Shown: positions 1 to 35,529 of the stretch, in pieces
Layout: every line of letters begins with the position of its first letter
Numbering within the stretch: the first letter of the stretch is position 1
NCBI GenBank assembly: GCA_046254885.1
Contig: CM100994.1
Span: forward strand, 93,702,727 to 93,766,726
Source: Sinanodonta woodiana
Taxonomy: Eukaryota
Direction of reading: 5' to 3'
Length of the DNA stretch: 64,000 bases
Notes under the pieces: model-generated
What the model saw: only the letters and a program-made list of their open reading frames with translations
What the model was told of the DNA's origin: nothing
The model's database searches: none
Made by a program: the position numbers and the translations under genes

Positions 1-78
1 GTCAAACGCGGGGTCTCGTTGTTCCTTAAACATTTTATTTAAATACTAGTATTTTCAATTGTGAAACTCTTCGAATTT

Positions 79-552
79 TTATCGTCGCCGTTTTCTCCCA
101 AGTCCACTTCCGGCTATAGCACTCAATATAGCGGTATTTGTTGCTGATGGCGAAGCCATCAATGACGGAGTCATTGACGACTCAGTCATCAACGATGCTA
201 GTTTTTGTTCTACATTTTTGTTTATTTCTTTACTAATATTTGCCGGCATAACTGTTGTAGACGGTAGTGGCTGTTTTCTTCTGGATTTCACCAACGCTAC
301 TATTTTATCTCTAGCCGCAGAAAATGCTCTTCCAGAAAGATCTCCTACGGCACTAAGTCCCTTATCACGAATAACATCAATCGCTTTCATTCCTAATTGT
401 TTAGCAATCGGCGCTACCCTTGGAGCAGCTCTTGTAAACAACCCAGCGATTACATTACCTAAACCATCACCGTAATATTCTTTATATACTGGTAGTCTTG
501 AGTTTACCACAAATTCCATTCTTGGTTTATCATGATTGTAGTATATGATCAT
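79..552 (-). CDS. Hypothetical small basic protein, possibly a virion core or minor-capsid precursor
   Basis: Track ORF of 157 aa with a TAA stop. The C-terminus AIAGSG-LGRKRRR is an Arg-rich tail preceded by an (I)xGx-G motif resembling the adenain-type cleavage consensus. No catalytic motifs are recognisable. Confidence 0.45.
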   Translation of the reverse strand: MIIYYNHDKPRMEFVVNSRLPVYKEYYGDGLGNVIAGLFTRAAPRVAPIAKQLGMKAIDVIRDKGLSAVGDLSGRAFSAARDKIVALVKSRRKQPLPSTTVMPANISKEINKNVEQKLASLMTESSMTPSLMASPSATNTAILSAIAGSGLGRKRRR

Positions 553-608
553 CTTATTGTAAAAACACTTAGTGTTTTCAATTGCTGGTAGTTTTTCTAA
601 ATGAAATC

Positions 609-1061
609 CTAGTCGCTGTAGTTTCCATCAACGCGGCGGCCTTCTACTAACTCTTCGACTAGTTCTCGATATAGATTAATATCCATGATACCACCCTGGA
701 ACAGTCTTCGACAAATATCAGCAGCCTCATTGATTATTTCTGGAGAATTATTTCCAGCTCGCTTTCCACCTACGAGTACTTCTAGCCGTGATATATCACT
801 GAGAATATTACCAGGACACGGAAAATTCAAAGAATTTTCTACCGTTGAATTTCCAACAATGCCCTTGTCATTGCCACTACCTGAGTATCCAGCGGCAATT
901 TTTTCCCCTTTCTTAGGTGTTTTTGATTTTTTTGTCAGTCCAAGGGCTTTCCTTTCTTCTATTACTTTATCACGAAAAGTATTATAGATTCCCCTGTTGT
1001 CTTTATGTATTCCAAATTCATGTCTATTTACTAAAAACACAGTTTTGTATCCAATCATCAA
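609..1061 (-). CDS. Hypothetical protein
   Basis: Track ORF of 150 aa with a TAG stop. It overlaps the upstream ORF by 38 nt in another frame. No recognisable motif. Confidence 0.35.
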   Translation of the reverse strand: MMIGYKTVFLVNRHEFGIHKDNRGIYNTFRDKVIEERKALGLTKKSKTPKKGEKIAAGYSGSGNDKGIVGNSTVENSLNFPCPGNILSDISRLEVLVGGKRAGNNSPEIINEAADICRRLFQGGIMDINLYRELVEELVEGRRVDGNYSD

Positions 1062-1737
1062 TATCTTTTACTTTTTCTAGTTTATTATCTTCTATATATT
1101 TATCTCGAAGTTTCTTTGGAGAATTTGTTGCGGTAAATTTAATTAAATCTTCTCCTTGATAACCTCTGATTTTACTTATATAGGATTTTTTAATTATTTT
1201 TGGGGGTGTATCTTCTCCATAAATACTAGGTAATTGTTCTTCTTGGAAACCTTTGGGTTCATCTTCTGGTTCTCTTGCAGTCGCTCCTTGCAGTTCTTCT
1301 TGGAAACCTTCGGGTTCATCATCAGCGAATTCAACATACGGTTGTTGGTCGGGAGTTGGTTCAATTGGTTGTGGTTGACGCTGTCGTATTTGTTCTAACA
1401 TTCGTTCTTTTCGTTGTTGCTGTCGTGAAGTAGTTACTATATCTGTAGGAAGCGTTTTTAGAATCTCCCTAGTTTGTCCGGTTTCCGCTGCTACCTTTTC
1501 TAGCGCGCAAAGAAGTGGTACTGTGGTTTTTATTACATCTTTTGTAGCAGTCGTTATCTGAGAAAATAGCTGTTCAGTTCCAACAGTAAAATCAGTTTGT
1601 GCTTGCTGTCGATGTTGAAGTTTATCTCGGACGCGATCTCGTACTGGTATAAAAGCTTTCAGCGCGGCTGATCTTTCTCGCGCTAATCTATTTGTAAGTG
1701 ATTCATTAACCATTATTGTAACATATATATTCATCAC
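1024..1737 (-). CDS. Hypothetical acidic protein with an internally duplicated DEPEGFQEE motif
   Basis: Track ORF of 237 aa starting ATGATG. It is Q/E/R-rich and contains two copies of D-E-P-(E/K)-G-F-Q-E-E. Its position in a co-oriented cluster with the two ORFs downstream suggests a structural gene module. Confidence 0.45.
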   Translation of the reverse strand: MMNIYVTIMVNESLTNRLARERSAALKAFIPVRDRVRDKLQHRQQAQTDFTVGTEQLFSQITTATKDVIKTTVPLLCALEKVAAETGQTREILKTLPTDIVTTSRQQQRKERMLEQIRQRQPQPIEPTPDQQPYVEFADDEPEGFQEELQGATAREPEDEPKGFQEEQLPSIYGEDTPPKIIKKSYISKIRGYQGEDLIKFTATNSPKKLRDKYIEDNKLEKVKDIDDWIQNCVFSK

Positions 1738-1937
1738 AATAATTCGATGTTTTCCTCTTTGATTGGAAAATCCTACGGATTTTCAAGTAAATTTACTTTT
1801 ATTTTATCGCCCAGTTTCACTAAGAAAGAAAAAAAAATAATAATTTTATAAACAAATTCCATTTTTCTTCTTCTAAAAAACATTATTGTTGATTATTATT
1901 TTTCAACCATAATTTTCGATTACCACGATTGTCATCA

Positions 1938-1980
1938 TCCATGATTAATCGCCATGATTAATCACCACGATTAATCATGG
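1938..1980. promoter_or_regulatory. Three tandem palindromic GATTAATC sites (13-bp spacing) between two minus-strand genes
   Basis: The sequence is catGATTAATCgc catGATTAATCac cacGATTAATCatgg. It is a candidate transcription-factor site array or terminator/promoter element. Confidence 0.35.
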
Positions 1981-2721
1981 TCATTGAAATAACGCGTTAT
2001 CAAAATCCTTTGCTGTGTCGGAGATTTCTTCTTCAAGCGAAAACATTTCACCGATAGTTCTCAGCAACGGAATTAAAAGTCTAGAAATATTAATCATTTC
2101 ATCTAACAACACTTTATTTCGGGATTTAACAAGATGATAAATTATTAGTTTTCGCTGTCTATCAAGAGTCTTTATGACACGATATTCAGAACGAATAATC
2201 TTTTCGTCGAAATTTATTTTTACGGGAAAATCTTTTCTAATTTTAAATAAATATTTTACACAGTTTTCTTCTTCGGCGTAGTTGCCAAATTCTTTCGGAA
2301 GATGATCCCACATCGTTGGAATAATGAGAAACTTGGTAAATAAATCAGCAACGGGATATGTTTTTGGGCAAAATACTTCTCGTAACGGACTAAATTTTTC
2401 TGTTTGACATATGATATATTCGAAGAAATGACTACTATTAATAATCTCTTCAAATAATGAAATCGCATGTGGAATTTTCCGAATAAAAACATTAAACATA
2501 AAGAAACGATTATTAATAATCTCATTGAGAAACCAATATTGGTAACAATCGCAAACATGATTCTCTAAATCTATATTCGTTGCATAATAGCGGTCATCGA
2601 TAATATCACAACGAAATGGTTCGGGTGAATATCGATTAACTTTTCGTGCGGCGATGCGATAATTTTCTTTCATTATATATATGTAAAATCTTATGTTTAA
2701 TTGGATATATTTTTTCAACAT
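1981..2721 (-). CDS. Hypothetical protein
   Basis: Track ORF of 246 aa with a TGA stop. No recognisable motif. The upstream region contains TATATAAAT. Confidence 0.45.
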   Translation of the reverse strand: MLKKYIQLNIRFYIYIMKENYRIAARKVNRYSPEPFRCDIIDDRYYATNIDLENHVCDCYQYWFLNEIINNRFFMFNVFIRKIPHAISLFEEIINSSHFFEYIICQTEKFSPLREVFCPKTYPVADLFTKFLIIPTMWDHLPKEFGNYAEEENCVKYLFKIRKDFPVKINFDEKIIRSEYRVIKTLDRQRKLIIYHLVKSRNKVLLDEMINISRLLIPLLRTIGEMFSLEEEISDTAKDFDNALFQ

Positions 2722-2725
2722 AATC

Positions 2726-3232
2726 TTATTTATATAAAAATGAAACCCAACAGCGGAATCCTTTTGAATATGCGCTTAGAGTGATGCCATCAGCAACAAA
2801 TTTGATAGATCGATTATTAATACTATAGTATTTTCCAGCAGAATATGTTGACGGAAAAACTTTTTCTTCAACATCCATGATTCCAATAACGGGTCTACGT
2901 GGTTGTGATCTAGTTCTCGGCGAAGAATTGAGGCAGTTTTCTTGTTGAGTTACCACACGAAGATTATCTAACCTGTTGTCAAGTTTATCGCGATTAATAT
3001 GATCAATAACAAATCCATTTGGAATTTCACCGCAAAAACATTCGACGATAAACCTATGAGATAGATAGTATTTTTTTCTTTTTATTATTACTATAAACAC
3101 ATATTTGCATATAACCAGAATTGATAACAGCACCGATATTTTTCCTTAATCGTTTATTTCTTATAATACCGTCGGTGGAAGCTTCGTAATCGACGTAAAT
3201 TGGATGCGACGCGAACGTTTTTTGATTCATAT
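2726..3232 (-). CDS. HNH homing endonuclease (NUMOD4-like N-terminus, HNH_3 core, AP2-like C-terminus), frameshifted in an A-run
   Basis: The track ORF 2726..3133 contains HRFIVECFCGEIPNGFVIDHINRDKLDNRLDNLRVVTQQEN, which is a canonical HNH motif. A 59-codon ORF starting with ATG at ~3232 (MNQKTFASHPIYVDYEASTDGIIRNKRLRKNIGAVINSGYMQICVYSNNKKKK) looks like the NUMOD4 N-terminal module. It is out of frame by 1 nt, with the shift lying in the aaaaagaaaaaaa run near 3060-3080. Confidence 0.75.
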
Positions 3233-3247
3233 ATTAATTAAGTGAAT

Positions 3248-3541
3248 TTATTTATTTAATTGTTTTTCCTTATAGCCCCCAGTTAGAAAATCATTTTCAT
3301 CATAAATAATATTGTATCTACGTTTGTAGTATTCTAGAAATGATCTACATCTTTTTCCGCCACATTCTGCGCATAATTTAGTTTTGCCTCGAACTACTTG
3401 TCCACATTTGATACAAGTTATCATCACTGTTGAACCATTTTTTATTTGTTGATTATGAGCCGCGCAAAAATCTCCAACGCATCTGCGTGAGCACATCTCG
3501 TTGCCTTTTTTATATAACCATTTGCACCTATTTTGTGCCAT
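3248..3541 (-). CDS. Cys-rich zinc-ribbon protein
   Basis: Track ORF of 97 aa with paired CxxC motifs (CKWLYKKGNEMCSRRC, CIKCGQ...CAECGGKRC). The ATG is preceded by TATATAAATG. Stop codon is TAA. Confidence 0.5.
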   Translation of the reverse strand: MAQNRCKWLYKKGNEMCSRRCVGDFCAAHNQQIKNGSTVMITCIKCGQVVRGKTKLCAECGGKRCRSFLEYYKRRYNIIYDENDFLTGGYKEKQLNK

Positions 3542-3595
3542 TTATATATTATATAAACTAAATTTCTAATTGAAGATAAATTTACTAATATATAA
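3542..3595. promoter_or_regulatory. 54-bp divergent intergenic promoter with TATATAAATG immediately at both start codons
   Basis: Both flanking genes start with ATG directly preceded by ATATATAA(ATG). A similar TATATAAAAATGAAAC sits at ~2739-2754. TAAATG resembles the late-promoter and initiator arrangement of cytoplasmic DNA viruses. Confidence 0.35.
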
Positions 3596-3943
3596 ATGAA
3601 ACATAAATTCAATCTTGATAAAGTTTCGGGAATATCATTAAAGGGGATTCCTAAAGATATTCTCGCGATGATCAGGCGCGCCAAGAGAGAATTTTATCGA
3701 GATGGCGCAGTACATACATGGATCACATATAATATCATCGTTGTTAGAAATAATAGACGGTATAATGTGAGCTCAGTTATGGATGATTCACGAGCGCTAA
3801 ATTTATTATCGATGATAGAAAATAATTCCTATTTTATGAGAATAAAATATATCACCGTAAGTAAGACTGGAGGTGATAACAACTATGTAATCCGAGATCA
3901 TCTAAATCCAGTAAGAAAAGATAAAAAAAAACTGTTGTCATAG
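3596..3943 (+). CDS. Hypothetical protein
   Basis: Track ORF of 115 aa with an ATG start directly preceded by TATATAAATG (a divergent promoter shared with 3248..3541). Stop codon is TAG. Confidence 0.45.
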   Translation: MKHKFNLDKVSGISLKGIPKDILAMIRRAKREFYRDGAVHTWITYNIIVVRNNRRYNVSSVMDDSRALNLLSMIENNSYFMRIKYITVSKTGGDNNYVIRDHLNPVRKDKKKLLS

Positions 3944-4032
3944 ATAAATATACTACTTCTCCGGGAGTATTAACAGGAATAGATAGTCACTATTATGAAA
4001 GAGACTATATTGTTACAGTTACTATTTATGGA

Positions 4033-4308
4033 TTGTATAAAATAAATAAAAATCCTGATATAAAAAAATTAGCTCCAATGAGAACTGCGGTAAATTTAAA
4101 CTGTGTAGAGAAGCGTGTAATAGAACATTTTATGAATGCTACTCACGGAGGAAAATTAACTGAGCAAAGAAAAGAAATAATAACTTCTTGGGGAGAACGT
4201 GTAAGGGAAACCGGAGCTACAATCGATGATGTAAAAAAAATTAGAAACGTTGTTAAGAACTCCGATATACGTGAAAACGTTATCTGGAGAACCATTAAAT
4301 ACAAGTAA
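4033..4308 (+). CDS. Small hypothetical protein
   Basis: The track start is TTG and the first in-frame ATG is at ~4078 (MRTAVNLNCVEK...). The 3' end overlaps the next ORF. Confidence 0.3.
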   Translation: MYKINKNPDIKKLAPMRTAVNLNCVEKRVIEHFMNATHGGKLTEQRKEIITSWGERVRETGATIDDVKKIRNVVKNSDIRENVIWRTIKYK

Positions 4309-5128
4309 ATATAAGAATAGAGGAACTCAAATTGATATTTATGATCATAATGGCCACGCGTGGAATGAAAGTGTAATGATGTTTCCGAAAGAAAGAAAAC
4401 TTAGATTTTACAATAAAGAAAATATATTTGACGCTATTTTACAAGTACAGAGTAGTTGTAATGATCCAGTTTCGGTGTGGCTATTATCTAGTGAACAAGA
4501 AGAAATGGGATTTGATCAATTTGTTACGACTAGTGGAGAATTATATAGAACTGAAGAGCTAAACAAGCGCATGATAAATATCGCTAATGATTTTATAAAA
4601 AACGTTGATGAAAAATTACTATTGAATTCCTTTACTGTATCATCGGTGTTAGCACATTACGCAAGAGAAAAGAACTTCTGGAGAAAAACTCCTCGAGGAC
4701 TTCTCGATGACATAAAATCAAGCTGTGTAGAATATTCTCATGGCGGACTGTGGAATACAAAATATGACTACGAGGATATGATCGCGATTGACATGGTTGC
4801 TAGCTATCCTGGTGGTTTTCTTGGAAACGGCGAATGTAATAAATATTTTATGAGATTTGGCCATCCAACTCATGAAATGGCTAGAGTCAGCATTAATGGA
4901 GAATTGCCTGATTTTGATTTAACTGGATTTGCTTACGTGGTCTCATTTAAACTTAGACCTGGATTACATCCTTGTAGTTATTGTTGGATTGGTAGACACA
5001 TGTCTGAAAAATCGTGGACTCCAATTGTGTTATTACGATATATGCTTGATAGTGGAATGTTACTGTCGTTGATTGTCAGCGAAGCAATTATATCGTATCG
5101 ATGTCAAAAGGATGTTTGGTTACCTTGA
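4250..5128 (+). CDS. N-terminal domain of the large replicative protein; same frame as the helicase, interrupted by TGA at 5126-5128
   Basis: The track ORF starts at TTG, and the first ATG is at ~4376 (MMFPKERK...). It is in the same reading frame (position mod 3 = 2) as 5135..6553, separated only by one TGA (tgg tta cct TGA cca gag ttg). No primase or Rep motif could be assigned by eye. Confidence 0.55.
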   Translation: MLRTPIYVKTLSGEPLNTSKYKNRGTQIDIYDHNGHAWNESVMMFPKERKLRFYNKENIFDAILQVQSSCNDPVSVWLLSSEQEEMGFDQFVTTSGELYRTEELNKRMINIANDFIKNVDEKLLLNSFTVSSVLAHYAREKNFWRKTPRGLLDDIKSSCVEYSHGGLWNTKYDYEDMIAIDMVASYPGGFLGNGECNKYFMRFGHPTHEMARVSINGELPDFDLTGFAYVVSFKLRPGLHPCSYCWIGRHMSEKSWTPIVLLRYMLDSGMLLSLIVSEAIISYRCQKDVWLP

Positions 5129-5134
5129 CCAGAG

Positions 5135-6553
5135 TTGGACAATATAATTCAACAGCATCGAGAAAATCATCCAGATCTCAGCGAAGAAAAAATCAACAAA
5201 GACTCACAGATGTTATATAGTTGTAGAGAAATATCTGCAAAAGATCTCGGAAGAAAGATTATAGGGAAATTTACCGCTGGAGGAAGATTTGATAACGCAA
5301 AATATTCCTCAAGATTGATAACTGATAACATTGAATATGATTTTATAGTTAAAAATCTAACAGAAACCAATAAGTTCGTAGCTAGAAAAGGTGCATTTTT
5401 ATCAAATGGAGAACGATTCGGTACTATAGTTACTTACATAGATGGAGAAAGCTCTCAGTGGACCCATTTGCGAAGTAGTATGCTCGCGTATACTTCGATT
5501 AATTTATTCTCGATGATAAATCGATTTCCAGAAACCGCTGTAAGAGTAGCGACTGATTCTATGTATATCCACCGGAAACATATTGAGGATGTTAAACCAT
5601 TTTTAAACGATAATGAAAACTGGGGTACTTGGAGAATTAAAAAGGAAATGTTACATAATTACTGTTTATCAGCTGATGCAGAAATATTTGATAATTACGT
5701 AGAATATTCCTCAGAATTTTTACCATCAAATGCACCTTCGGTATCTGACCCTGTGACTAGATATAAAATAGTTTATTTGAGCGGTTGTGGAGGTAGTGGG
5801 AAAACAACAAGAGCAATCGAATTATATAAAAATACGAATACGATTGTGTTAACACCAACTCATCGACTCGCCAGAGAACTAACCCAGCGAGGAGTAAAAG
5901 CTTGTACTTACCATAGTTTCTTTAGATATAAGGGGAATCTGTGGACACCAGAGCGAATGGGAGATAAATTCATTCCTGAAGTAGTTATGTGGGATGAGAT
6001 ATGTACTGTATCAAAGGAAATATTACAAGTATTTCTGGATTGGCTAAATAAGAAAAATACAAAAATTATATTATGCGGCGATCACGGTCAACCTCCGCCA
6101 TTTTGCGGAGATTCTCCGCATGATTGGCTAAAGGGTTACGTAGAATACTACGAAGAAGTTACTACTGATTATAGATCATTAGATGAACAACTACGAGAAT
6201 TGAAATCTAAAATTAGATTACAATCAAATAAAACTCAGTGTGAAATAATTAGAGAAGAAATAGCTGAAACTCCATTAGATGAATTTTGGAAAACGTGGAA
6301 TCCTAACGATTTAATAATCGCGAGTAGAAAAATAGTCCGGGATGAAATTCAAAAGAAATTATTTAAATTACATAAAAAGAAATTTCCCACGATGAAAGTT
6401 CCTTTATGTTATAGACCATTTGATACTAGGAAACAAAATATTCTAGTTGATATTCCTGGTGAATCCCAACAACAAATGTTAGTGTTGAATGATATTGTAT
6501 TCGTGGACATAAAATATGTTAAAGATGCAATTAACGCTGTTCAATCACCATAG
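5135..6553 (+). CDS. SF1 DNA helicase core (PIF1/RecD-like, AAA_30 type)
   Basis: Motif I is YLSGCGGSGKTT and motif Ia is VLTPTHRLARELT. Motif II is VVMWDEICTV and motif III is IILCGDHGQPPP. The ORF ends at an in-frame TAG (6551-6553) just before motif VI. Confidence 0.85.
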   Translation: MDNIIQQHRENHPDLSEEKINKDSQMLYSCREISAKDLGRKIIGKFTAGGRFDNAKYSSRLITDNIEYDFIVKNLTETNKFVARKGAFLSNGERFGTIVTYIDGESSQWTHLRSSMLAYTSINLFSMINRFPETAVRVATDSMYIHRKHIEDVKPFLNDNENWGTWRIKKEMLHNYCLSADAEIFDNYVEYSSEFLPSNAPSVSDPVTRYKIVYLSGCGGSGKTTRAIELYKNTNTIVLTPTHRLARELTQRGVKACTYHSFFRYKGNLWTPERMGDKFIPEVVMWDEICTVSKEILQVFLDWLNKKNTKIILCGDHGQPPPFCGDSPHDWLKGYVEYYEEVTTDYRSLDEQLRELKSKIRLQSNKTQCEIIREEIAETPLDEFWKTWNPNDLIIASRKIVRDEIQKKLFKLHKKKFPTMKVPLCYRPFDTRKQNILVDIPGESQQQMLVLNDIVFVDIKYVKDAINAVQSP

Positions 6554-7015
6554 ATGTTAGGTTATGCAGCTTCGATACATTCTTCGCAAGGATTGACCAT
6601 CGAGGATAAAACCGTTTGGATTATTGATAATCGTATTGAGTGGTCAAATTTAGTTTATCTTGCAGTTAGTCGAGTACGACGAATAAATCAACTTCGAAGA
6701 GTTTTCATTGATGAAAAATCTTCAGAGTTACCAGAAATATCTATAATTGACAACATCAATAAGAAACTTTCTGGATATAAACAACAAGATAAAGCAAAAC
6801 AACGAGAATTTAACATAGATGAACAATTAATAATTGAGCTGCGAGATAAACAAAAAAATCATTGCGCTGTTTGTAATTGTATAATGCGCTGGCAGTATCT
6901 AGCAGGAGATTCTCGTCAATTTACCGTAGATAGAATAAATAATAATCTCGGTCATATAAAAAACAATGTAAAATTAACCTGTTTAGAATGTAATAGACGC
7001 CATGATAAATTATAA
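6554..7015 (+). CDS. Helicase motif V/VI segment plus C-terminal HNH-like zinc-finger domain (continuation of the helicase frame)
   Basis: It begins GYAASIHSSQGLT, which is PIF1/RecD motif VI. The C-terminus HCAVCNC...FTVDRINNNLGHIKNNVKLTCLECNRRH has a CxxC...CxxC pattern with an HNH-like spacing. Stop codon is TAA. Confidence 0.7.
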   Translation: MLGYAASIHSSQGLTIEDKTVWIIDNRIEWSNLVYLAVSRVRRINQLRRVFIDEKSSELPEISIIDNINKKLSGYKQQDKAKQREFNIDEQLIIELRDKQKNHCAVCNCIMRWQYLAGDSRQFTVDRINNNLGHIKNNVKLTCLECNRRHDKL

Positions 7016-7022
7016 ATAATTT

Positions 7023-7469
7023 TCAATTAAGATTCTTTGGTGGTAATTGAGTATCCTCAGGAATCACCTGTAGTTGTTCGCGTGTAAAACCTCGTTGTGG
7101 CGCAGTTGAATCTAATCTATATATCGGAGGTCTATTTGAAACTCCCTTGGAATTTTGCGATCTTGTTATCGTAGATATTTTATGTGTAGTAACACTCCAG
7201 ATTGGATCAGTGGCTCTTCTTGTACCGCCTTCAAGTTCTCCTGGCTCATATAAATATCTCACAGTGACATTGGAAATCCCTTGGATTTCAAGAATTGGCT
7301 GAGAAATAATATCTCGTGGTTGTGGTATATAATTTTTTTTTATTGCGTCGCTGGGTTTCATATTAATTGTTCGATTAATCTCATTGTTTAGCGCTGTAAT
7401 TACTCCTGGTAATCGTTTAACCCATTCACGAGATCTATCATCGGAGATGAATTCTTTCGCGTATTGATA
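7023..7469 (-). CDS. Integrase C-terminal domain (same frame as the core, beyond an in-frame TGA at 7470-7472)
   Basis: Immediately after the TGA the frame reads YQYAKEFISDDRSREWVKRLPGVITALNNEINRTINMKPSDAI. This matches the conserved post-DDE W..LP..(A)YN......P motif of retroviral and retrotransposon integrases. The frame then continues as track ORF 7023..7361. Confidence 0.6.
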   Translation of the reverse strand, partial: YQYAKEFISDDRSREWVKRLPGVITALNNEINRTINMKPSDAIKKNYIPQPRDIISQPILEIQGISNVTVRYLYEPGELEGGTRRATDPIWSVTTHKISTITRSQNSKGVSNRPPIYRLDSTAPQRGFTREQLQVIPEDTQLPPKNLN

Positions 7470-8033
7470 TCAAAATAATCGTTCAGCAAGAGTTCGATTA
7501 AATCGTTCAACAATTGCTTGATCACGATGTATTGCGGTATGTCCTCGTCGTATATTAACGTTATGATTTTTCATTGTTGAGTTTACTACACCTTGAAACT
7601 CTTTACCAGGATCAATCTGTAGTAGATTTGGCCATCGCAAAGGTCCTTTTTTTAAAATAAATTTTTCAAATGTTGAAGCGACTTCAGTTGATGTTTTTGT
7701 TTTTAGCGGCTCTGCGTGTTTATATCGAGTCGCTACATCAACGACCGTTAACGCATATTTGTAACCGTTATCGTGTGGGAGAAATAATATATCAGCTTGA
7801 TGAACTTCATTAGGTACAAAAACATCAAAATGAGAATAATTGATCTTCTTAGGTCGAGGTAGATAAATCTGCCATATAGCTTGTTTAGATAACCAATTAG
7901 CTGCGGTTGTTTTTGATACCTTTGCAGCGTTAGCTAATTTATTAATAGCTGATTTACCCCTCCAATATCCAGTAGGAGAATAATAAATTTTTTCCATCAT
8001 TGATTTATCAACAGAAATTACTTTACGTGACAT
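7470..8033 (-). CDS. rve-family DDE integrase, catalytic core with N-terminal HTH-like region
   Basis: The catalytic residues are D in HQADILFL, D in LQIDPGKEF and E in AIVERFNRTLAE. The ORF ends at a TGA that is in frame with a conserved C-terminal continuation. Confidence 0.85.
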   Translation of the reverse strand: MSRKVISVDKSMMEKIYYSPTGYWRGKSAINKLANAAKVSKTTAANWLSKQAIWQIYLPRPKKINYSHFDVFVPNEVHQADILFLPHDNGYKYALTVVDVATRYKHAEPLKTKTSTEVASTFEKFILKKGPLRWPNLLQIDPGKEFQGVVNSTMKNHNVNIRRGHTAIHRDQAIVERFNRTLAERLF

Positions 8034-8571
8034 TATATACTTGTACGGGAAGCTCCACTTCCAAATAACAATTTACCCTTCATGATAGTTTTAATAACCG
8101 CAGATGTTATTTTTTCTCTAAGGGATTTATCCGGGATGGCATTTATCGCATGAATCAATCTTACATCAGCGAGATGACGCTGTTGAAGATCACCACTACG
8201 ATAAGCTATATCATGTATTCGACATGCTTCATCGATCGCATTTATAGGCTCTTCTCCGGGATTGGGGTTATCGTTGCTATCAAGTCTGATATCTAATCTT
8301 GTTCCCGGACCACAGTAATTATATCCTGGAACATGTTTTTCACCGGGATACTTAGCCCACGGAGTTCCTGGAAGCTTTATTAATTTGGCGGTGATGTCAC
8401 CTCCGAGTTTTTTTTTTTTATAAATCTAATTTTTTTTATGCCACATGTTGCACACTTACCGGTAAGTGCTGGTCGATTATTCTTAGTTGTAATAGTTGTT
8501 TGGTCGGTTGTTGGGGTACGTGTTCTACATTTCACACAATATAAATCCATAATTATTATGTTATATAACAT
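8033..8571 (-). CDS. Zn-ribbon protein fused to a parvovirus-type phospholipase A2 domain (apparent frameshift in a 12-nt A/T run near 8408-8419)
   Basis: The track ORF 8380..8571 reads MLYNIIIMDLYCVKCRT...CATCG, a Zn ribbon. An adjacent frame reads ...PGYNYCGPGTRLDIRLDSNDNPNPGEEPINAIDEACRIHDIAYRSGDL..., which carries the Ca-loop YxGPG and the catalytic HDxxY of the parvoviral VP1u PLA2. That frame ends at a TAA sharing one base with the integrase ATG (ATAATG). The PLA2 frame has no start codon of its own. Confidence 0.7.
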
Positions 8572-8610
8572 GACTGTAATTAGTTATTCAGCAACACGAG
8601 AACCAAACCC
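8533..8610. repeat. Upstream copy of a ~80-bp direct duplication of the ATPase promoter and 5' end
   Basis: cacacaatataaatccataattattatgttatataacatgactgtaattagttattcagcaacacgagaaccaaaccc is near-identical to 8766-8847. It contains overlapping ATGs on both strands. Confidence 0.7.
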
Positions 8611-8765
8611 CACAAAACGATTTACCAAGATACCAGATTCCGACCGATGATAGTTAAACCAATTGTTGGTATACGACGCGATATACACTTTCCATCAATA
8701 ATACTAATATGCTATTCTGATGGAACTAGCAGTCGGCTCAATTATCGATGTACGCCTTATACCCC

Positions 8766-8847
8766 TCACAACAATATAGATTCATAATTTATTTTGTTAT
8801 ATGGATATGAATGTAATTGATTATTCAGCAACACGAGAACCAGAACC
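8766..8847. repeat. Downstream copy of the same duplication, including the ATPase start
   Basis: See 8533..8610. The segment includes ATG 8801 and the first ~15 codons of the ATPase. Confidence 0.7.
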
Positions 8848-9316
8848 CGTAAAACATCACCCGTTGTTGCCAAATTCGATACGGATGATTATCATTGGAC
8901 CTTCAGGAAGCGGCAAAACACATTTGCTAATTGATATGATAATGAGACATATGAAATGGGACAAGTTGTATTTAATTGCTCCAAGTGTAGACGATCAACG
9001 ATGTTATCAGGTGCTAAAGGATTTAAACGAACGAATATTAGAAATTACCGGCGAAAACGGTATTGAATTTATAACCGATATTGACGAAGCGCCATCCTTG
9101 GATGACCTAGATAGAGAAATTAGGAATCTTGTAGTGTACGATGATGTCATGTTGGATAAACAAAAAAATCCCGCTAGGATATTTTCCAGAGGCAGGCATA
9201 AAAACGCCGACGTGATATATGTAACTCAGCGGTATACGCAAATACCAAAAGTAATACGAGACAATTGTAATTTGTTATGTGATGTGTATTTAACGGCATT
9301 GATACTCACACGCTAA
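8801..9316 (+). CDS. A32-like (FtsK-HerA superfamily) genome-packaging ATPase
   Basis: Walker A is IIIGPSGSGKTHLL and Walker B is LVVYDDVM. The family-specific SRGRHKNADVIYVTQRY motif is present. The ORF ends at an in-frame TAA, and the same frame continues to ~9472. Confidence 0.85.
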   Translation: MDMNVIDYSATREPEPVKHHPLLPNSIRMIIIGPSGSGKTHLLIDMIMRHMKWDKLYLIAPSVDDQRCYQVLKDLNERILEITGENGIEFITDIDEAPSLDDLDREIRNLVVYDDVMLDKQKNPARIFSRGRHKNADVIYVTQRYTQIPKVIRDNCNLLCDVYLTALILTR

Positions 9317-9472
9317 GAAATATTTGGACGACTTGGTGTTCCGATATGGATTATAATACGTTTATGAATTTTTTTCAGCCATGCAAGATCAACTCCACAC
9401 GGATTTGTAACGATAAATATACATGATCCTCGAACACGATATCGTATCAGATTAGATAGAATCTTTGGATAA
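9317..9472 (+). pseudogene. Probable original C-terminus of the packaging ATPase (same frame, beyond TAA 9314-9316 and TGA 9365-9367)
   Basis: Frame 2 continues EIFGRLGVPIWIIIRL*IFFSHARSTPHGFVTINIHDPRTRYRIRLDRIFG*. The total would be ~224 codons, which is the typical length of A32-like ATPases. Confidence 0.4.
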
Positions 9473-9542
9473 CATATAAATTTCCTATTTGCTACCCTCG
9501 TTGCAGAGTAACGTTATGATACAACGCAGCTTGTTTAGTGAA

Positions 9543-10270
9543 AAATCTAGTTGCAAAAAAACGAAATATTTTTTTTTTTTATCCCCGATGATCGGGTATA
9601 TGTTTCGGGCAAAAAGTACAGTTAATCCTCGGTATATGTTTCGGGCAAAAAGTACAGTTCTCCCCCTGGTGGAAAAATGCAGTTTTCTCATTGTCGCAGC
9701 TGTAACATAGAAATATTTTTTACCGTTAGATTACCGCTTCGGTGGCCTAGTGGTTAGAGCGTCCGCCACGGAAGCGGGAGGTCGTGGGTTCGATCCCTGG
9801 CCGAGTCATACCAAAAACTTACAAAATGGTACTAGCAGCTGCCTCGCTTGACGCTCAGCATTAAGAGGTTAGTGTTAGGACTGGTCGGCCTGGTGTCAGG
9901 ATAATGTGACTGGGTGGGACATCATGCTACACGTCTGCAGCATGATGTCTCGGTGCTAGACATCACTTTAAACCTCACAGCAGACATCGTAGCGATATGA
10001 CTGAAAAATTGTTAAAGCTACGTTAAAAATCCTAATCAAACAAACAAACAAAATTACCAAAATAAGGTTTCTATATTGGAAATCTGCTTATGGCATATAG
10101 TAATGAAGGGTGGTAAAAAGTACAGTTCTCCCTCTGTGCTAGAAAAATATTCATGACAACATTATCGCAGCTGTATCATAGAAATATCTAGTTGCAAAAA
10201 AATGAAATTTTTTATCCCCCGATGATTAGGTATTTGTTTCAGGCAAAAGTACATTTCTCCCCCTCTGCTG
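9543..10270. repeat. Diverged ~180-bp direct duplication bracketing a SINE, just outside the last viral gene
   Basis: atctagttgcaaaaaaa(c/t)gaaat...tatcccc(c)gatgat..ggtat.tgtttc.ggcaaaa(a)gtacagttctccccct and gcagctgta(a/t)catagaaatat occur at 9545-9715 and again at 10142-10262. Copy A also has an internal 36-bp duplication. Confidence 0.55.
9741..10060 (+). mobile_element. tRNA-derived SINE, family A, full length
   Basis: The tRNA-like head GGTGGCCTAGTGGTTAGAGCG...GGTTCGATCC carries A and B boxes. The conserved body is ...gctgcctcgcttgacgctcagcattaagaggttagtgttaggactggtcggcctggtgtcaggataatgtgactgggtggg... with an (aaac)n tail. There are four copies in the window. Confidence 0.75.
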
Positions 10271-10360
10271 CTTCTTCTGTTAACCTTTCTGAAGAAGAAA
10301 AAAATAGTAACTATAAAACAAAATAAATATTTTTTTCCATTGCGCTGAAGCTTTACGGCG

Positions 10361-10469
<109 letters not shown>

Positions 10470-13400
10470 CGTATCAGCGTACAATACAATTATAGCGTCA
10501 GTTAAAAAAATGTAGTTTCTATTTTGCAATACAAACATTCATGTATGTATCTGATGGTTAAAACCTATTTTAAATTTCTATGAAATAAAGGAATACGAAA
10601 CCTTTCAAATTTCTTTCATATTGCATTTTTTAAAATTATTATTATTGAGTTCCATTATTTCATTGCATACTGCAATTCCATTTCAATCGATTTTACGTTT
10701 GCGTGTTTTAGTCATGCCTCATCGAGTAACGTCCCCTACAGTACCCAGCAGATGACCATACAAAAATGTAAGCATATATATTTGATCCATCATTACATAA
10801 AGTTCCCATCGTATGTAAAACTAAACCTCAATACAGTTCAATATTGCAAAGTATTTCTAACCGTTCTGTTGTGTTTTCTATTAAGCGGTTTAACAGGTAT
10901 AATAGCGTTCACATACTTATTGGCGACGAGGAGATTGAGGCCTTTACGTACAGTACAGTAGAGCTTGACATGTCATTTGTTTACTCTCCTGGATGCCGAC
11001 ATTACCCCGTATGAATTTTGTAGTGTACGTCAACGAGGCCATTTATGTGCTTTTTCTTGAATTAAATATTGTTTTTTTTTAAAACAATTAAATTTAACAA
11101 AGTTCAACAATTTTTTTTAATGGAAGCGCAAATGATCTGCACCTTAAATAAAATTGCAAAAAAACATCGAATAACTTCCACACAAGAATTATTGATCACT
11201 AATGAAATCTTACAGTGATGGCCAGGTTCTGATAATGAGCCGAGAAAAAAGGATGTCATGTCTAATCAGCACAAATTCTTGTCAGCATAGGCAGCTTTGC
11301 TTATGGCATTATAGCAACCAAATTATATCCAGTTTGTACTGGATCATACATTTAACTTGATATTGTCCAAAAATGTCCACGGACTTGACCAATGTTTTTG
11401 ACATATGTACATGTATTACTCATTGCATCTATGTATTGACTTCCTGAAGAATATGGCTGTTTTATGATGGAAATAATATGAACAAATAGCACTTAAAGTT
11501 AAACATGTGTGATCAAATTCTACTAAATGACCCAGTTACTAAATCTGTTGGTACTGTACTTTCTCACCCAAGCGACAGAGAAATCTGGCTGTTTTGCTAA
11601 CCTTACTTTTTTTTATCTCAGTCAAGTCATCTCATTCCAGGCATCTCAGTCATGGTGTCCACATGCTCAGAACTACTTTTATTAATAATACAAACAGCAT
11701 TCTTGTCTTCGCTGTGCCATAGTTGTTCTCAAATAAAACAACAGCAATAACATCAACAACAAAAATAGATAACCAAAATATAGTTACTTAAGGTCATTCT
11801 GTCTTACAAAACACTAAACAAAAACAGTTTGATAGAGACCAATACACACACACATACTATTTCGAGGTTTTGATATTATGTTAGTTCGCTTTAACTTGCC
11901 TAGTCAAATTAAATTTATCCTATATGCAGGAATAGCTCAGTAGATTTTCAGAACAATGCAGCTAAAACAACTGTCTGAGCTAGTTGTAAACACATCGTGT
12001 GAAAGAATGTATATACTTTTTAGCTACATTTAATGAAGCTGACCTGAAAATTTGCCATGCTACAGATAGGATAAAACTCTAAATGGTGTTTGAAATAAAC
12101 TGTCAGAAACACTGATCTATGCACATAACTTCGTAAGACTATATCCATATACACTTCATTGCATCTCAACTATCTAACAACAATGGAAAACTTAGCAACA
12201 GCCAGGAATGTATTGCGTCAAACAATCTTTATAATAATTTTGTTTGGCATCTCGATTCGTTATGCTCCATCTGAGTGAATGCAATATTTATTGATAAATA
12301 ATAAACTTACCAGCCAGAATGAAATTGATTTATTCATTAACACACTAATCCATCAGCAAATTTCACTACATCATTTGCCATATTTCTAAGACAGAAATAT
12401 AATTTTTCAAAGAATCAGTGAACTTGAAAGGTTTGCACATTTTTATCCTCTGGGGTACACAATGGTGATGAGTTTGTTTTATATGGGAGAGCTTGGAGTA
12501 CTCAAAATTGGAAATGATGAAAGGAAACTGTTTTTTCTAATAAAGTATAACTATTTATTGTTAATTTTATATAACATCCATATATAAAATATGATAAAAT
12601 CTCATTACTATGCTACGTTTTATGTTGTTATTTTTCTTCGCTCATGCATATAAACAGTGTACTTCGGATGCAACAGTCACATCACTGCCCTCGTTAGCAT
12701 ATTAATATTCATGTGCCACATGTAAACATTACAATGAAAACACTAGTAAAACGTTCTTTTTACTTAAAGGATAATATTGGGTGAGAAAAATAATCTACAT
12801 TGGGGTTTTGGCCAAGAAAATGAAATCCCAGCCGTGGGGTTATATTAAATATCTCCCCACTCGGACAAGCCTTGCTGGGAGACAAATAATATAACCCCTA
12901 TGCTGGGATATACAGTGGAGCCTGCTATAATGCGCCCCGCCATAACGCGAATTCGGATATAATGCGGTCACGGCGTGGCTCCCGAAATTTGATATACTTT
13001 TTCGCTCATAAATTTTGTCTTTTTCTTGAAGTGTTATGTCAAAATAAACATGATGTGTTTGTTCTTTGTGGTTGTCTTCAATTAATTCTGTATACAATCG
13101 TTGCTCTCACTTTAGCCGACGTGTATTTCTTCTTTAATTGGACACAAAAACAGACAATGCGGTGGTTGAAAAGTTTCTCATAGTTTAATAAACATAAAAA
13201 AAAAAAAACGAAAGCCAAGCCGCCAACGTTTTTCTGGGCTTGGCGGTGTTACTAGACGCAATCAGTTGACCAGTAAGTAATGTTTGCTTCACAAAGTAGA
13301 AATTGACAGGGTATGAAATTGACATGCGTTAAGCTTTAAAAAAAATTATAAAAGTGACTTGTGACAATTGCAGGCCTACAGCACTTAGTTCTCGGGTTTT

Positions 13401-14764: not shown

Positions 14765-14872
<108 letters not shown>

Positions 14873-15232: not shown

Positions 15233-15349
<117 letters not shown>

Positions 15350-16795
15350 TCAAGTAAAGAATAAATAATTCATATAAATTTATATTATTAGCTTTTTATT
15401 TTTATTCAAACATGTTTGACTATTCCCATTCCAATATTTCCAAGAAGAAGACTTTCTTCACAAAAATTAATTAAATGTTATTTATTTGTATAAAATATAT
15501 AATGAAAAGTTATAATGAATATACATGTACATATATAATATAGAATCAGCAAATACTTTTGATTCTTCAATACTTTTCCTATCACTCTGTGTATTTAAAA
15601 AAATATGTTTTACTATGATTCGCCATGTATTAGATCTGTCAAATCAAATTCATGTACAACCAAGTTTTACATCATTAAATTGTTCCATAAATAGGAATTA
15701 AGGTAAATAATTTGTATCAAAATCACATAATAATATTTTATTTTGCTTTATATTATTATTCAAACCCCCAAAAATAATTTGTGTGTATATTTAATTTGTT
15801 GTGTGCAGATAAATTGTATTACAAAAATTCATATCTGGAGTATTTTCAATATAATTTTATAAGTTTTTTTGAGAAAAAAGTTCTTGTCATTTAAATTTGT
15901 CTTCTAAAACATAAATACCAAAACAATAAATCCAAATAAATTTAAGTCTTTTTAATTAACATTTGATAAAATAAAAAAACCTAACATGAATATGGTACAT
16001 GTATTTAGTCTATCATATAGATTCTCAATAAATTCCCATTATTCCCACCTGTTAAACAATGATAATTTTTTTTATGTGCCATTTTAGTTAGTTATTTAAC
16101 AGAGAGATACCATGTTAGATTATAAATGGAAAAAAGAGGTGCTACCATTTCATTCTAGACTTTGTGGAGGCTTTCATTTCAACATGAATAAAAAGTATAT
16201 ACTTTCTAAAAGCTTTTGAAAAATTGGTTGAAAATTTTAAATTTATGCCCATTTGAATCTTTGTATGTTATATAGACCAATTTTTCATCTAGTTTTTAGA
16301 TCCTCATTTGCCTGAGATACAAATTCAAACTTTATCATTGAAGACTTTATTTTGAAGCAAAGTATCTATGCACCTAAATTATGTTGTGTATATATTACTA
16401 TTATTTCCTTCTCCAAAAATGTTCACACATGAATGGAGATTAATTGAGTGTAGTAATATTGGAAATTTTTGGTCTATTATTTATTCTCTGAACATAATGC
16501 AATGAGAGGAGCATTTTCCAAGGAGAAAGCAAATTGTTAAGTACATTATGTTTCTCCAAGAATATATACCCAATCATAATACTTAATTTTAGATGAGAAA
16601 GCAATTTATTTATTTTAAAATTATATCAAATTTGTTTATGATATGAAGGTGGTGAGGTTCATGTAAGGTTTATGTATAACTGAAAATTATGATGATAATG
16701 CTACTTTGCAGTGGACATTTAATTGTCCATTTTTTTGTTTGTTAGTTCATCTTGGGAACTGTGTTGTGTTTGATAAAGAGTTTGTTTTATTTCAG

Positions 16796-26440: not shown

Positions 26441-27390
26441 AACTTACAAAAACAAAATTCTTTGTTTACAAAGATCTTTTAGAAAAAACAAACCTAAAAG
26501 GCAACACACTGCCAAACATGAAACTTGGATACAAGTATTAATAAAAGTATAATCTTATTGCTTGTAATCTTGTAATATCATATCACTGGATGTCCCCGGA
26601 AGTGTAAAGTGATTTCTCGGTCATGCGCACCTCGTCAAAGGGCAAGTAATTTTCAAGGGAAACAACCTAGTTATGGGAAAGGCCAATTGTGACCGCTTAT
26701 AACTTTAAGCAGAAACCATGTCCACTACCGTATGTCAGTAATCAGTGGTAGTATATTACAGGATAAGGTATATGAATAATATACTACCACTGTAAATAAA
26801 TGTAGATTTTGAAGGATTCTAAGAGTGATAGAACTTTTATAATTCATAATTTTGAATTAATATTTTTAATAATTTCAATTATGACTTAACATTGATGATA
26901 CATGTTTTTATTTTAGCATATAGCTTTCTTACTTTCATTTTTGTTAAATTTGAAGATAATATTTATGTTACTAATGTGATTTGCCTAAATAAATGTGTTT
27001 AGAACCACTTTTTTGCATCTTGTAATGTAGTCTAAACTTATGGGTCAGCATTATGTGGGTCATGCACTTTTTAACATTTTTACCTATTCAGCTGGGTGGG
27101 GTGGGGTGTCGGCTTATATGCAAATGGGTTTATATGCTAAAATATATGGTAAGACAATTTGAAGTCAGATATACTGTAGCCAAAATATTTTAGACAAAAT
27201 TGCTTCTGTGAAGTAACTTGAATTCTGTTTGACGTACCACTGCAAACTTTGTAGTTTGGTTTCAATCTAAAACTTGGGGGTCAAAAGGTAAAAAGTCAAG
27301 GTCATTAGGATCCAACAAAGTACAATTGTTTCTGGACAATATCATGAATTGAGCAGTATCTATAGATACATTGTGTATGTTTAACTGCTC

Positions 27391-28623: not shown

Positions 28624-28715
28624 GTTTGCAGCATATCTATTTTATCATATGTAATGTACATAACATGCAAACAGAATGAATCTAGTTGTGCCATTGCATG
28701 GTGCACTGCCATCAC

Positions 28716-35511: not shown

Positions 35512-35529
35512 GTAATAGATATGTCAGTT

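What the first reader, a model, noticed from the sequence alone, without database searches (positions are those of the whole stretch)
1..9480. Endogenous polinton-like viral element with an unusual gene set: rve integrase, A32 ATPase, SF1 helicase, parvo-type PLA2 and HNH nucleases, but no pPolB in view
Canonical polintons and adintoviruses pair the integrase and packaging ATPase with a protein-primed PolB and an adenain protease. Here the only replication enzyme in ~9.5 kb is a ~920-codon reading frame ending in a PIF1/RecD-like SF1 helicase. That arrangement resembles the Tlr1-type polinton-like viruses of protists rather than animal Mavericks. The element also encodes a parvovirus-like PLA2 and two HNH-type nuclease modules. 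The small co-oriented ORFs at 79-1737 may be virion proteins. This would be an undescribed or rarely described lineage of integrating mid-size dsDNA viruses in an animal genome.
Basis: partly seen in the sequence, partly recalled or inferred. Interest (0 to 1): 0.85.

Follow-up and report, generated by a model that had tools for sequence, protein, structure and literature searches.

The report
Decayed polinton-like virus in mussel-type genome
The region is the right-hand ~10 kb of a ~16 kb virus-like mobile element of an already described kind, inserted in an animal (apparently bivalve) genome and now broken by mutations, so it is a real but ordinary find.

Summary

An intact syntenic relative in the mussel Potamilus streckersoni (L005) shows the whole ~16.1 kb element. 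It has long terminal inverted repeats, a double-jelly-roll capsid gene, a weak adenain-like protease candidate and a possible penton gene. In the window these capsid-side genes would lie beyond the left edge.

The window copy carries about eight disabling lesions and a host SINE in its terminal repeat region, so it is an endogenous, decaying copy. Two recent preprints already describe animal "group 2 Maverick-Polintons" with helicase-polymerase fusions and phospholipase, and report many such elements in bivalves. Verdict: new member of a known kind.

One side observation may be new. PLA2 sits in the -1 frame behind an A8-A12 run at the end of the DUF5679 gene in 9 of 11 loci.

The parts
79..552 (-). 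157-aa small basic protein gene, the last virion-block gene before the window edge
   Evidence: 89 homologs. It is 66% identical to the L005 151-aa protein, and weakly similar to a 126-aa protein next to the capsid gene in L003. In L005 and L006 its homolog is followed directly by the double-jelly-roll MCP gene.
609..1737 (-). Gene for a ~370-aa protein, split here into ORFs 1024-1737 and 609-1061 by one frameshift
   Evidence: Both ORFs match one intact 370-aa ORF in L005 (8851-9963), at 51% and 71% identity. The C-terminal motif is shared with the L003 368-aa protein. No Pfam hit.
1981..2721 (-). 246-aa ORF of unknown function, lineage-specific cargo
   Evidence: No Pfam hit. No counterpart in the equivalent L005 region 6875-8520.
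2726..3133 (-). Stand-alone HNH_3 homing-type endonuclease
   Evidence: Pfam HNH_3 E 1.4e-17. The L005 homolog is 168 aa with HNH_3 plus NUMOD1.
3248..3541 (-). 97-aa zinc-ribbon protein
   Evidence: Pfam Zn_ribbon_3 E 3e-4, below the curated cut-off. Syntenic homologs in L001 and L005, 47% identity.
3596..7015 (+). Pseudogene of the replication protein (pPolB-S1H, or 'Tlr1-like helicase'). Landmarks: N-terminal domain 3605-3928; vOTU Cys motif LNCVEKRV 4096-4119 and His motif DHNGHAW 4343-4363; PolB motif A DMVASYPG 4781-4816, motif B 5465-5506, motif C VATDSMY 5540-5569; helicase Walker A 5783-5806 through motif VI 6662-6682; HNH-like 6860-6994. Lesions: frame changes near 3930 and 4240, TGA 5126-5128, TAG 6551-6553.
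   Evidence: - Intact homologs of 1,168-1,176 aa at 57-62% identity.
- tblastn shows three frame segments in the window.
- Helicase: Pfam AAA_19/AAA_30 and PDB Pif1/RecD hits.
- Motif coordinates.
7023..8033 (-). rve (DDE) integrase with an in-frame TGA at 7470-7472
   Evidence: Pfam rve E 1.4e-8. 74% identical over 316 aa to the intact 317-aa integrase of L001, which has Gly at the stop position.
8036..8425 (-). Parvovirus-type phospholipase A2 reading frame. It has no start codon of its own and lies in the -1 frame relative to DUF5679.
   Evidence: YCGPG and HDIAY motifs. 72% identical to L005. Frame analysis.
8380..8571 (-). DUF5679 zinc-ribbon gene, ending in an A12 run (about 8405-8420) where the PLA2 frame opens
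   Evidence: Pfam DUF5679 E 2.8e-14. Sequence.
8570..8650 (+). Duplicated copy of the 5' end of the ATPase gene
   Evidence: 86% identical over 49 nt to 8807-8855. Also present in metagenome contigs L016 and L017, so it is a lineage feature and not a local rearrangement.
8801..9473 (+). A32-type packaging ATPase, disrupted by a 5-nt insertion (9277-9281) and a 1-nt insertion (9369)
   Evidence: Pfam Pox_A32 E 2.9e-12. The reconstructed 221-aa protein is 98% identical to intact P0156, 219 aa. Indels mapped against L016.
9487..10350 (.). Probable terminal (inverted) repeat region with internal direct repeats, interrupted by a host tRNA-derived SINE at 9733-10054. (TC)52 follows at 10363-10466.
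   Evidence: - Repeat units 9540-9716 and 10112-10264 occur nowhere else in the window.
- The SINE has three other copies in the window. Its tRNA-like head is at 9736-9808.
- Contigs L016 and L017 both end at the position matching 9486.
- In L005 the TIR starts right after the ATPase stop and holds ~160-nt tandem units.
- The outer boundary is inferred, not shown.

Best explanation
Window 1 to ~10350 holds the ATPase-side two-thirds of an endogenous, mutationally decayed copy of a ~16 kb Maverick/Polinton-type (polinton-like) dsDNA virus in an animal genome, most likely a bivalve.

**How the intact element is expected to work**
- It is a linear genome bounded by long terminal inverted repeats.
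- One large protein replicates it. That protein joins a terminal-protein-like N-terminal domain, a viral OTU cysteine protease, a protein-primed family B polymerase palm without exonuclease, an SF1 (Pif1/RecD-like) helicase and a C-terminal HNH module.
- The rve integrase inserts the genome into host DNA.
- The A32 ATPase packages it into a double-jelly-roll capsid. That capsid gene, plus weaker protease and penton candidates, lies in the part beyond the window's left edge.
- A virion PLA2 would help membrane penetration, as in parvoviruses.
- The stand-alone HNH_3 gene is a selfish homing-endonuclease passenger.

**Shown here:** domain identities, synteny with an intact relative, the TIRs of that relative, and the lesions and SINE insertion in the window copy.
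**Inferred:** protein priming, polymerase activity, OTU self-processing, the role of PLA2, and the exact right boundary.

The window copy itself is non-functional.
For: - **Domains.** Pfam and PDB hits for rve, A32, SF1 helicase, HNH_3 and DUF5679.
- **Replication protein family.** 1,964 homologs at E <= 0.001. Twenty residues are invariant across 22 full-length members, among them D418 (motif A), R649 (motif B), D677 (motif C), Walker A G760/G762/K763 and D830/E831.
- **Intact relative.** L005 (Potamilus streckersoni, JAEAOA010001884.1) has the same gene order with uninterrupted ORFs. It also has an MCP with Pfam DJR-like_dom at E 2e-17, a weak adenain-like candidate (Peptidase_C5 E 0.016, below the curated cut-off) and a 473-aa possible penton gene. 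Its TIRs are at least 336 nt, 97-100% matched, about 15.4 kb apart. L006 shows the same small-gene-then-MCP adjacency.
- **Endogenous and decayed.** About eight disabling lesions. A SINE of a family with three other copies in the window sits in the terminal region.
- **Literature.** The same architecture is described for PLVs (PMC5499653, PMC11161782) and for animal group 2 Maverick-Polintons (10.64898/2026.06.19.733378).
Against: - The capsid, protease and penton genes and the left TIR are not in the window. They are inferred from relatives whose proteins are 41-83% identical to the window's or to its closest intact homologs.
- No target-site duplication could be examined.
- The non-coding terminal region of the window shows no nucleotide similarity to the L005 TIR, so its assignment rests on position and repeat structure.
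- No phylogeny was run. Placement as 'group 2 Maverick-Polinton' rather than an Aquintoviricetes-type PLV rests on gene content only.
- The host was not identified directly.
- The L005 protease call is weak, and the 473-aa 'penton' has no profile support.
Confidence: 0.85

Rival explanations
1. It is an ordinary (group 1) Maverick/Polinton whose canonical stand-alone pPolB and adenain simply lie off the left edge of the window.
For: - The window is cut on the left.
- A more distant relative, L003, has a classical polinton/adintovirus layout with a protease-like gene, MCP and penton-like gene.
- MCPs of the L005 and L003 types are homologous, E 1e-18.
Against: - The intact syntenic element L005 is bounded by TIRs and holds no second polymerase gene.
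- Its only polymerase is the palm domain inside the helicase fusion, which lacks an exonuclease domain.
Confidence: 0.05
2. It belongs to the protist-type polinton-like viruses (Aquintoviricetes/Tlr1 lineage) that entered an animal genome, not to the animal Maverick-Polinton radiation. That would be the rarer case.
For: - The replication protein is the Tlr1-like pPolB-S1H typical of PLVs (PMC5499653, PMC11161782).
- Preprint 10.64898/2026.06.19.733378 notes that some Bivalvia ATPases group with Aquintoviruses.
- Preprint 10.1101/2025.04.19.649669 provisionally assigns 40.8% of bivalve viral regions to PLVs.
Against: - Gene content fits what the 2026 preprint describes for animal group 2 Maverick-Polintons: rve integrase, PLA2, a weak adenain-like protease candidate in L005, and a single MCP homologous to that of an adintovirus-like contig. 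DUF5679 is common in coral polintoviruses (PMC11131425).
- ATPase relatives at 29-36% identity sit in a polinton-like contig and a spider genome.
- No tree was built.
Confidence: 0.15
3. The sequence is a free virus or contaminant assembled into the contig, not an integrated element.
For: Near-identical (97% nt) and many 60-80% aa relatives occur on short contigs of environmental metagenomes in ENA and JGI.
Against: - Three nonsense codons and several frameshifts are present.
- A host SINE with three other copies in the same window is inserted in the terminal region.
- The sequence continues into 54 kb of repeat-rich eukaryotic DNA.
Confidence: 0.03

Closest known systems
Tlr1-like helicase / pPolB-S1H replication protein of polinton-like viruses, Tlr1 elements and transpovirons (Krupovic, Yutin, Koonin 2016, PMC5499653; PNAS 2024, PMC11161782)
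   Same: - Size is ~1,170 aa, within the published 1,000-1,400 aa range.
- Same domain order: variable N-terminal domain, vOTU with conserved Cys/His, protein-primed PolB palm without exonuclease, C-terminal SF1 helicase, terminal HNH.
- Motif C has lost the first Asp (ATDS). Motif A Asp and motif B are conserved, as the papers describe.
   Different: - The host is an animal (unionid-mussel relatives) rather than a protist or a giant virus.
- It is paired with rve integrase, PLA2, DUF5679 and a weak adenain-like protease candidate.
- Sequence similarity to published members was not measured here.
Animal 'group 2 Maverick-Polintons' / adintoviruses (bioRxiv 10.64898/2026.06.19.733378; Starrett et al. 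2021, PMC8502044)
   Same: - Animal host, rve integrase, A32 ATPase, DJR MCP and a protease candidate.
- Phospholipase is common in the group.
- pPolB is often replaced by an SF1 or SF3 helicase fused to a polymerase.
- Integrated copies have TIRs.
   Different: Membership was not tested by phylogeny. This particular mussel lineage, with its HNH_3 and zinc-ribbon genes and the 246-aa cargo ORF, is not named in the text I could read.
Tlr1 element of Tetrahymena thermophila
   Same: rve integrase, A32 ATPase and DJR capsid genes combined with a Tlr1-like helicase instead of a stand-alone pPolB.
   Different: - Tlr1 has a GIY-YIG rather than an HNH domain at the helicase C-terminus (PMC5499653).
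- Its host is a ciliate.
- The texts I read do not report PLA2 or an adenain-like protease for it.
Canonical (group 1) Mavericks/Polintons
   Same: Morphogenetic module, rve integrase, TIRs, animal hosts.
   Different: They carry a stand-alone pPolB with exonuclease and terminal-protein regions and no fused helicase.

Membership tests
Polinton-like viruses / Maverick-Polintons in the broad sense (Preplasmiviricota with DJR capsid) | A32/FtsK-type genome-packaging ATPase | tested here: met
   Pfam Pox_A32 E 2.9e-12. 98% identical to an intact 219-aa homolog.
Polinton-like viruses / Maverick-Polintons in the broad sense (Preplasmiviricota with DJR capsid) | Double-jelly-roll major capsid protein and penton protein | tested here: inconclusive
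   Not in the window, which is cut at the left edge. The syntenic intact relatives L005 and L006 have MCPs with Pfam DJR-like_dom at E 2e-17 and 8e-18, directly downstream of the homolog of window ORF 79-552. The L005 473-aa penton candidate has no profile hit.
Polinton-like viruses / Maverick-Polintons in the broad sense (Preplasmiviricota with DJR capsid) | Terminal inverted repeats and target-site duplication | tested here: inconclusive
   L005 has TIRs of at least 336 nt at 97-100% identity. In the window only one end is present, as a repeat-bearing region at 9487-10350. The TSD could not be examined.
Maverick/Polinton in the strict sense (original definition) | Retrovirus-like rve integrase | tested here: met
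   Pfam rve E 1.4e-8. 74% identity to the intact 317-aa L001 integrase. Candidate D, D, E residues lie at 7776-7802, 7722-7751 and 7497-7541.
Maverick/Polinton in the strict sense (original definition) | Stand-alone protein-primed PolB with exonuclease domain | tested here: not met
   Only a palm/polymerisation domain fused to a helicase is present. The TIR-bounded relative L005 has no other polymerase gene.
Maverick/Polinton in the strict sense (original definition) | Adenain-like cysteine maturation protease | tested here: inconclusive
   Not in the window. The L005 162-aa ORF gives Peptidase_C5 at E 0.016, below the curated cut-off.
Tlr1-like helicase / pPolB-S1H protein family | C-terminal SF1 helicase domain in a protein of 1,000-1,400 aa | tested here: met
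   Pfam AAA_19/AAA_30. PDB Pif1/RecD hits. Intact homologs are 1,168-1,176 aa.
Tlr1-like helicase / pPolB-S1H protein family | Protein-primed family B polymerase palm domain with motifs A, B and C and no exonuclease domain | tested here: met
Tlr1-like helicase / pPolB-S1H protein family | vOTU protease domain with conserved Cys and His upstream of the palm | tested here: met
Tlr1-like helicase / pPolB-S1H protein family | C-terminal homing endonuclease (HNH or GIY-YIG) | tested here: inconclusive
   The motif CxxC...GH...N...CxxCN is present at 6860-6994. Only 1 of 22 members reaches Pfam HNH, at E 0.013. No Pfam hit for the window segment itself.
Group 2 Maverick-Polintons (Polintoviricetes) versus Aquintoviricetes PLVs | Placement in ATPase and MCP phylogenies | not tested
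Gene content (PLA2, rve, protease candidate, DUF5679) favours group 2.

The most novel reading that the evidence does not exclude
In this lineage of animal polinton-like viruses, the virion phospholipase A2 may be made only by recoding.

**What the sequences show**
- The PLA2 frame has no conserved start codon.
- It opens in the -1 frame at an A8-A12 run at the end of the DUF5679 zinc-ribbon ORF.
- This holds in 9 of 11 independent loci: the window, the mussel genome contig L005, short-contig assembly and environmental contigs L007-L010, L012 and L014 (8 of 10), plus L016 read by eye.
- The window and L016 carry an in-frame A_AAA_AAC heptamer.
- Amino-acid conservation switches to the PLA2 frame right after the run.

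**Possible mechanisms**
- A programmed -1 ribosomal frameshift, or transcriptional slippage adding one A. Either would yield a zinc-ribbon-PLA2 fusion alongside the short zinc-ribbon protein.
- A 59-nt intron from the GGTAAGT inside the zinc ribbon to the AG before GGTGA would also join the frames.

I found no report of this in the papers I read.
Probability: 0.4. Interest if true: 0.5.

Novelty: new member of a known kind. Interest (0 to 1): 0.3.

Why it matters
It adds one more, partly decayed, example to the large population of polinton-type endogenous viruses in bivalve genomes. The published TP-like/vOTU/pPolB-palm/SF1-helicase/HNH architecture was recovered independently, by structure prediction, in a mussel-associated lineage. 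The catalytic residues of the protease, polymerase and helicase are invariant across diverse members. That agrees with the 2024 prediction that these proteins are active polymerases. The finding opens no new question by itself. The conserved -1 frame junction between DUF5679 and PLA2 is the only element that could lead to something new, namely recoding in a eukaryotic dsDNA virus.

Tried and rejected
**Searches that found nothing**
- IMG/VR scan with the close-homolog alignment A1: no relatives. The diverse alignment A2 was too variable to derive search patterns.
- Pfam on 22 full-length members and a PDB sequence search with the palm-region profile gave no polymerase hits. Only structure comparison revealed the PolB and OTU folds.
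- The Sinanodonta protein P0005 could not be located on a contig.
- The AFDB50 fold library was unavailable, so the host distribution of the fold could not be surveyed.
- Left-hand ORFs 79-2721 have no Pfam hits. They gave no phmmer hits against L003 or L004. Only manual pairwise comparison showed weak similarity.
- ORF 1981-2721 has no counterpart in L005.
- The ORFs at 24919-26438, which I suspected to be retrotransposon (LINE) fragments, gave no Pfam hit.

**Ideas considered and rejected**
- An alternative genetic code as the cause of the in-frame stops. Rejected because both TGA and TAG occur as in-frame stops, and intact orthologs have sense codons or uninterrupted ORFs at those positions.
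- The DUF5679/PLA2 frame change as a pseudogenising lesion. Rejected because the otherwise intact L005 and seven or eight other loci share it.
- The duplicated ATPase 5' fragment as a local rearrangement. Rejected because L016 and L017 carry it too.

Full report
**1. What is in the sequence**

- rve integrase at 7470-8033(-), E 1.4e-8.
- Pox_A32 ATPase at 8801-9316(+), E 2.9e-12.
- SF1 helicase P-loop domains in 5135-6550(+), E ~1e-10.
- HNH_3 at 2726-3133(-), E 1.4e-17.
- DUF5679 zinc ribbon at 8380-8571(-), E 2.8e-14.
- On the minus strand at 8036-8425, a frame with the parvovirus-type PLA2 motifs YCGPG and HDIAY.
- A family profile of the big protein hits Pif1-family and RecD helicases in the PDB at E 9e-7 to 9e-4.
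- The second "HNH", at the C-terminus of the helicase gene, rests on its motif and one weak Pfam hit among 22 relatives.

The rest of the window is repeat-rich, AT-rich eukaryotic DNA with long tandem arrays, microsatellites and a tRNA-derived SINE.

**2. The replication gene is larger than reported and contains a polymerase**

Homology search found intact proteins of 1,168-1,176 aa at 57-62% identity. tblastn maps them onto window 3605-7003 in three frame segments, with two in-frame stops. The gene therefore spans 3596-7015 and is a pseudogene here.

A profile search of 1.84 billion representatives found 1,964 relatives. Twenty residues are invariant across 22 full-length members. They include:
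- D418 in a DxxACYP motif;
- R649 in the motif-B-like stretch (Y655 is nearly invariant);
- D677 in ATDS;
- the helicase Walker A (G760, G762, K763) and D830/E831.

N173, C174 and H258 are nearly invariant in that set. They are invariant in a 19-sequence N-terminal alignment.

The architecture is therefore: N-terminal domain, vOTU, pPolB palm without exonuclease, SF1 helicase, HNH-like tail. This is the "Tlr1-like helicase" described in 2016 (PMC5499653). It was re-described in 2024 as TP-vOTU-PALM-S1H and predicted to be an active polymerase (PMC11161782).

**3. The whole element, from an intact relative**

The homolog of window ORF 79-552 led to a contig of the unionid mussel Potamilus streckersoni (L005). 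It carries the same genes in the same order, all uninterrupted:
- ATPase;
- DUF5679 and PLA2;
- integrase (313 aa);
- pPolB-S1H (1,169 aa);
- zinc-ribbon protein;
- HNH_3 with NUMOD1;
- a 370-aa gene, equal to window ORFs 1024-1737 plus 609-1061 joined;
- a 151-aa gene, equal to window 79-552.

Beyond these it continues with:
- a 479-aa capsid protein (Pfam DJR-like_dom, E 2e-17);
- a small membrane protein;
- a 162-aa adenain-like candidate (Peptidase_C5 E 0.016, weak);
- two further ORFs;
- a 473-aa possible penton gene.

The element is bounded by inverted repeats of at least 336 nt, 97-100% matched and about 15.4 kb apart, with ~160-nt internal tandem units. A second contig, L006, shows the same small-gene-then-MCP adjacency.

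The full element is thus ~16.1 kb. The window holds its ATPase-side two-thirds. By this synteny the capsid-side genes would lie beyond the window's left edge.

No second polymerase gene exists within the TIRs of L005. This rules out an ordinary Maverick with pPolB off-window.

**4. State of the window copy**

Against the intact relatives, the window copy has about eight disabling lesions:
- two frame changes (near 3930 and 4240) and two stops (TGA 5126-5128, TAG 6551-6553) in the replication gene;
- TGA at 7470-7472 in the integrase, where relatives have Gly;
- a 5-nt and a 1-nt insertion in the ATPase (9277-9281 and 9369);
- one frameshift in the 370-aa gene.

Two metagenome contigs (L016, L017) are 97% identical in DNA to window 8364-9486 and encode an intact ATPase. 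Both end at the position matching 9486, which is where a terminal repeat would break an assembly.

The stretch 9487-10350 contains locus-specific direct repeats. It is interrupted by a SINE at 9733-10054 that has three other copies in the window. This shows residence in this host genome after integration.

The right boundary is therefore probably near 10350 rather than 9480. This is inferred.

**5. Comparison with the literature and novelty**

- One preprint states that animal "group 2 Maverick-Polintons" (insects, spiders, molluscs and others) often replace pPolB with SF1 or SF3 helicases fused to a polymerase, and commonly carry a phospholipase (10.64898/2026.06.19.733378).
- Another reports that bivalve genomes have the highest content of endogenous dsDNA viral regions. 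It provisionally assigns 58.5% to Orthopolintovirales and 40.8% to PLVs (10.1101/2025.04.19.649669).
- DUF5679 is frequent in coral polintoviruses (PMC11131425).
- PLA2 domains are known in PLVs (PMC11296320).
- A spider gene model (P0207, Caerostris darwini) fuses A32, PLA2 and DUF5679. More distant relatives therefore exist in arthropods.

The finding is a new member of a known kind. I did not run the phylogeny needed to choose between Polintoviricetes group 2 and Aquintoviricetes. Gene content favours the former.

**6. Side observation**

In the window, DUF5679 and PLA2 are in different frames. This is not a lesion.

I compared ten loci: the window, L005, and eight of the nine contigs recovered from a metagenome scan. 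In eight of the ten, PLA2 lies in the -1 frame relative to DUF5679. The PLA2 frame opens at an A8-A12 run, lacks a conserved ATG, and becomes the conserved frame right after the run.

L016, read by eye, shows the same arrangement with A9, giving nine of eleven. Like the window, it carries an in-frame A_AAA_AAC heptamer.

Three mechanisms could join the frames:
- programmed -1 frameshifting;
- transcriptional slippage that inserts one A;
- a 59-nt intron using the GGTAAGT inside the zinc ribbon.

RNA data would decide. Homopolymer miscalls are an alternative explanation for the long-read assemblies. They are less likely for the several contigs that appear to come from short-read assemblies.

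Noticed in passing
window 8380-8571 and 8036-8425 (-), junction at the A12 run about 8405-8420; also L005 1008-1507, L007-L010, L012, L014, L016: PLA2 lies in the -1 frame behind an A8-A12 run at the end of the DUF5679 ORF in 9 of 11 independent loci, and has no conserved start codon of its own. The window and L016 have an in-frame A_AAA_AAC heptamer. Candidate programmed frameshift, transcriptional slippage, or a 59-nt intron.
   Followed up: partly
window 8570-8618 versus 8807-8855: The first ~49 nt of the ATPase gene plus a few upstream bases are duplicated 237 nt upstream (86% identity), abutting the DUF5679 start. Metagenome contigs L016 and L017 carry the same duplication, so it is a lineage feature. 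There it is part of a called 118-aa ORF of unknown meaning.
   Followed up: partly
L016 and L017 (ENA metagenome contigs) versus window 8364-9486: Two independent metagenome contigs, 97% identical to the window, both stop at the base matching window 9486, which is 13 nt after the ATPase stop. This suggests the inner edge of a terminal repeat, or a genome end.
   Followed up: partly
window 9733-10054; copies at 27384-27729, 46296-46616(-), 54713-54979: A tRNA-derived SINE family (~320 bp). The copy at 9736-9808 is called tRNA-Pro(CGG) by ARAGORN and just passes the Rfam tRNA threshold (30.1 versus 29 bits). This copy is inserted in the element's terminal region.
   Followed up: partly
window 1981-2721 (-): A 246-aa AT-rich ORF between the HNH_3 gene and the virion-gene block, with no Pfam hit and no counterpart in the intact relative L005. 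L005 has ~1.6 kb without long ORFs at that place. This looks like a variable cargo slot.
   Followed up: partly
window 28621-30181, 35403-38178, 45172-46266, 55214-56500, 57474-59864: Large tandem arrays with periods of 87, 42, 35, 27 and 50/65 bp produce long spurious ORFs on both strands. Microsatellites are also present: (TA)n at 14768-14869 and 44286-44401, (TG)n at 15233-15352, (TC)52 at 10363-10466.
   Followed up: no
ENA and JGI metagenome contigs (e.g. Ga0209400, Ga0114972, OSIY01034822): Proteins 60-98% identical to the ATPase, the 157-aa protein and DUF5679/PLA2 are common on ~1 kb contigs of environmental metagenomes. They could be mussel DNA in water samples or free virus particles. 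This was not resolved.
   Followed up: no
L004 (Caerostris darwini, BPLQ01012505.1) 10001-12454: A spider 'gene' (P0207, 360 aa) is an annotation chimera that joins an A32 ATPase, PLA2 and DUF5679 of a related element, with an rve integrase next to it.
   Followed up: no
alignments A2 and A4 (P0001 numbering): Catalytic-type residues of all three enzymatic domains are conserved across 19-22 diverse family members: OTU C174/H258, polymerase D418/D677, helicase K763/D830/E831. This agrees with the published prediction that the polymerase is active, not inactivated.
   Followed up: partly
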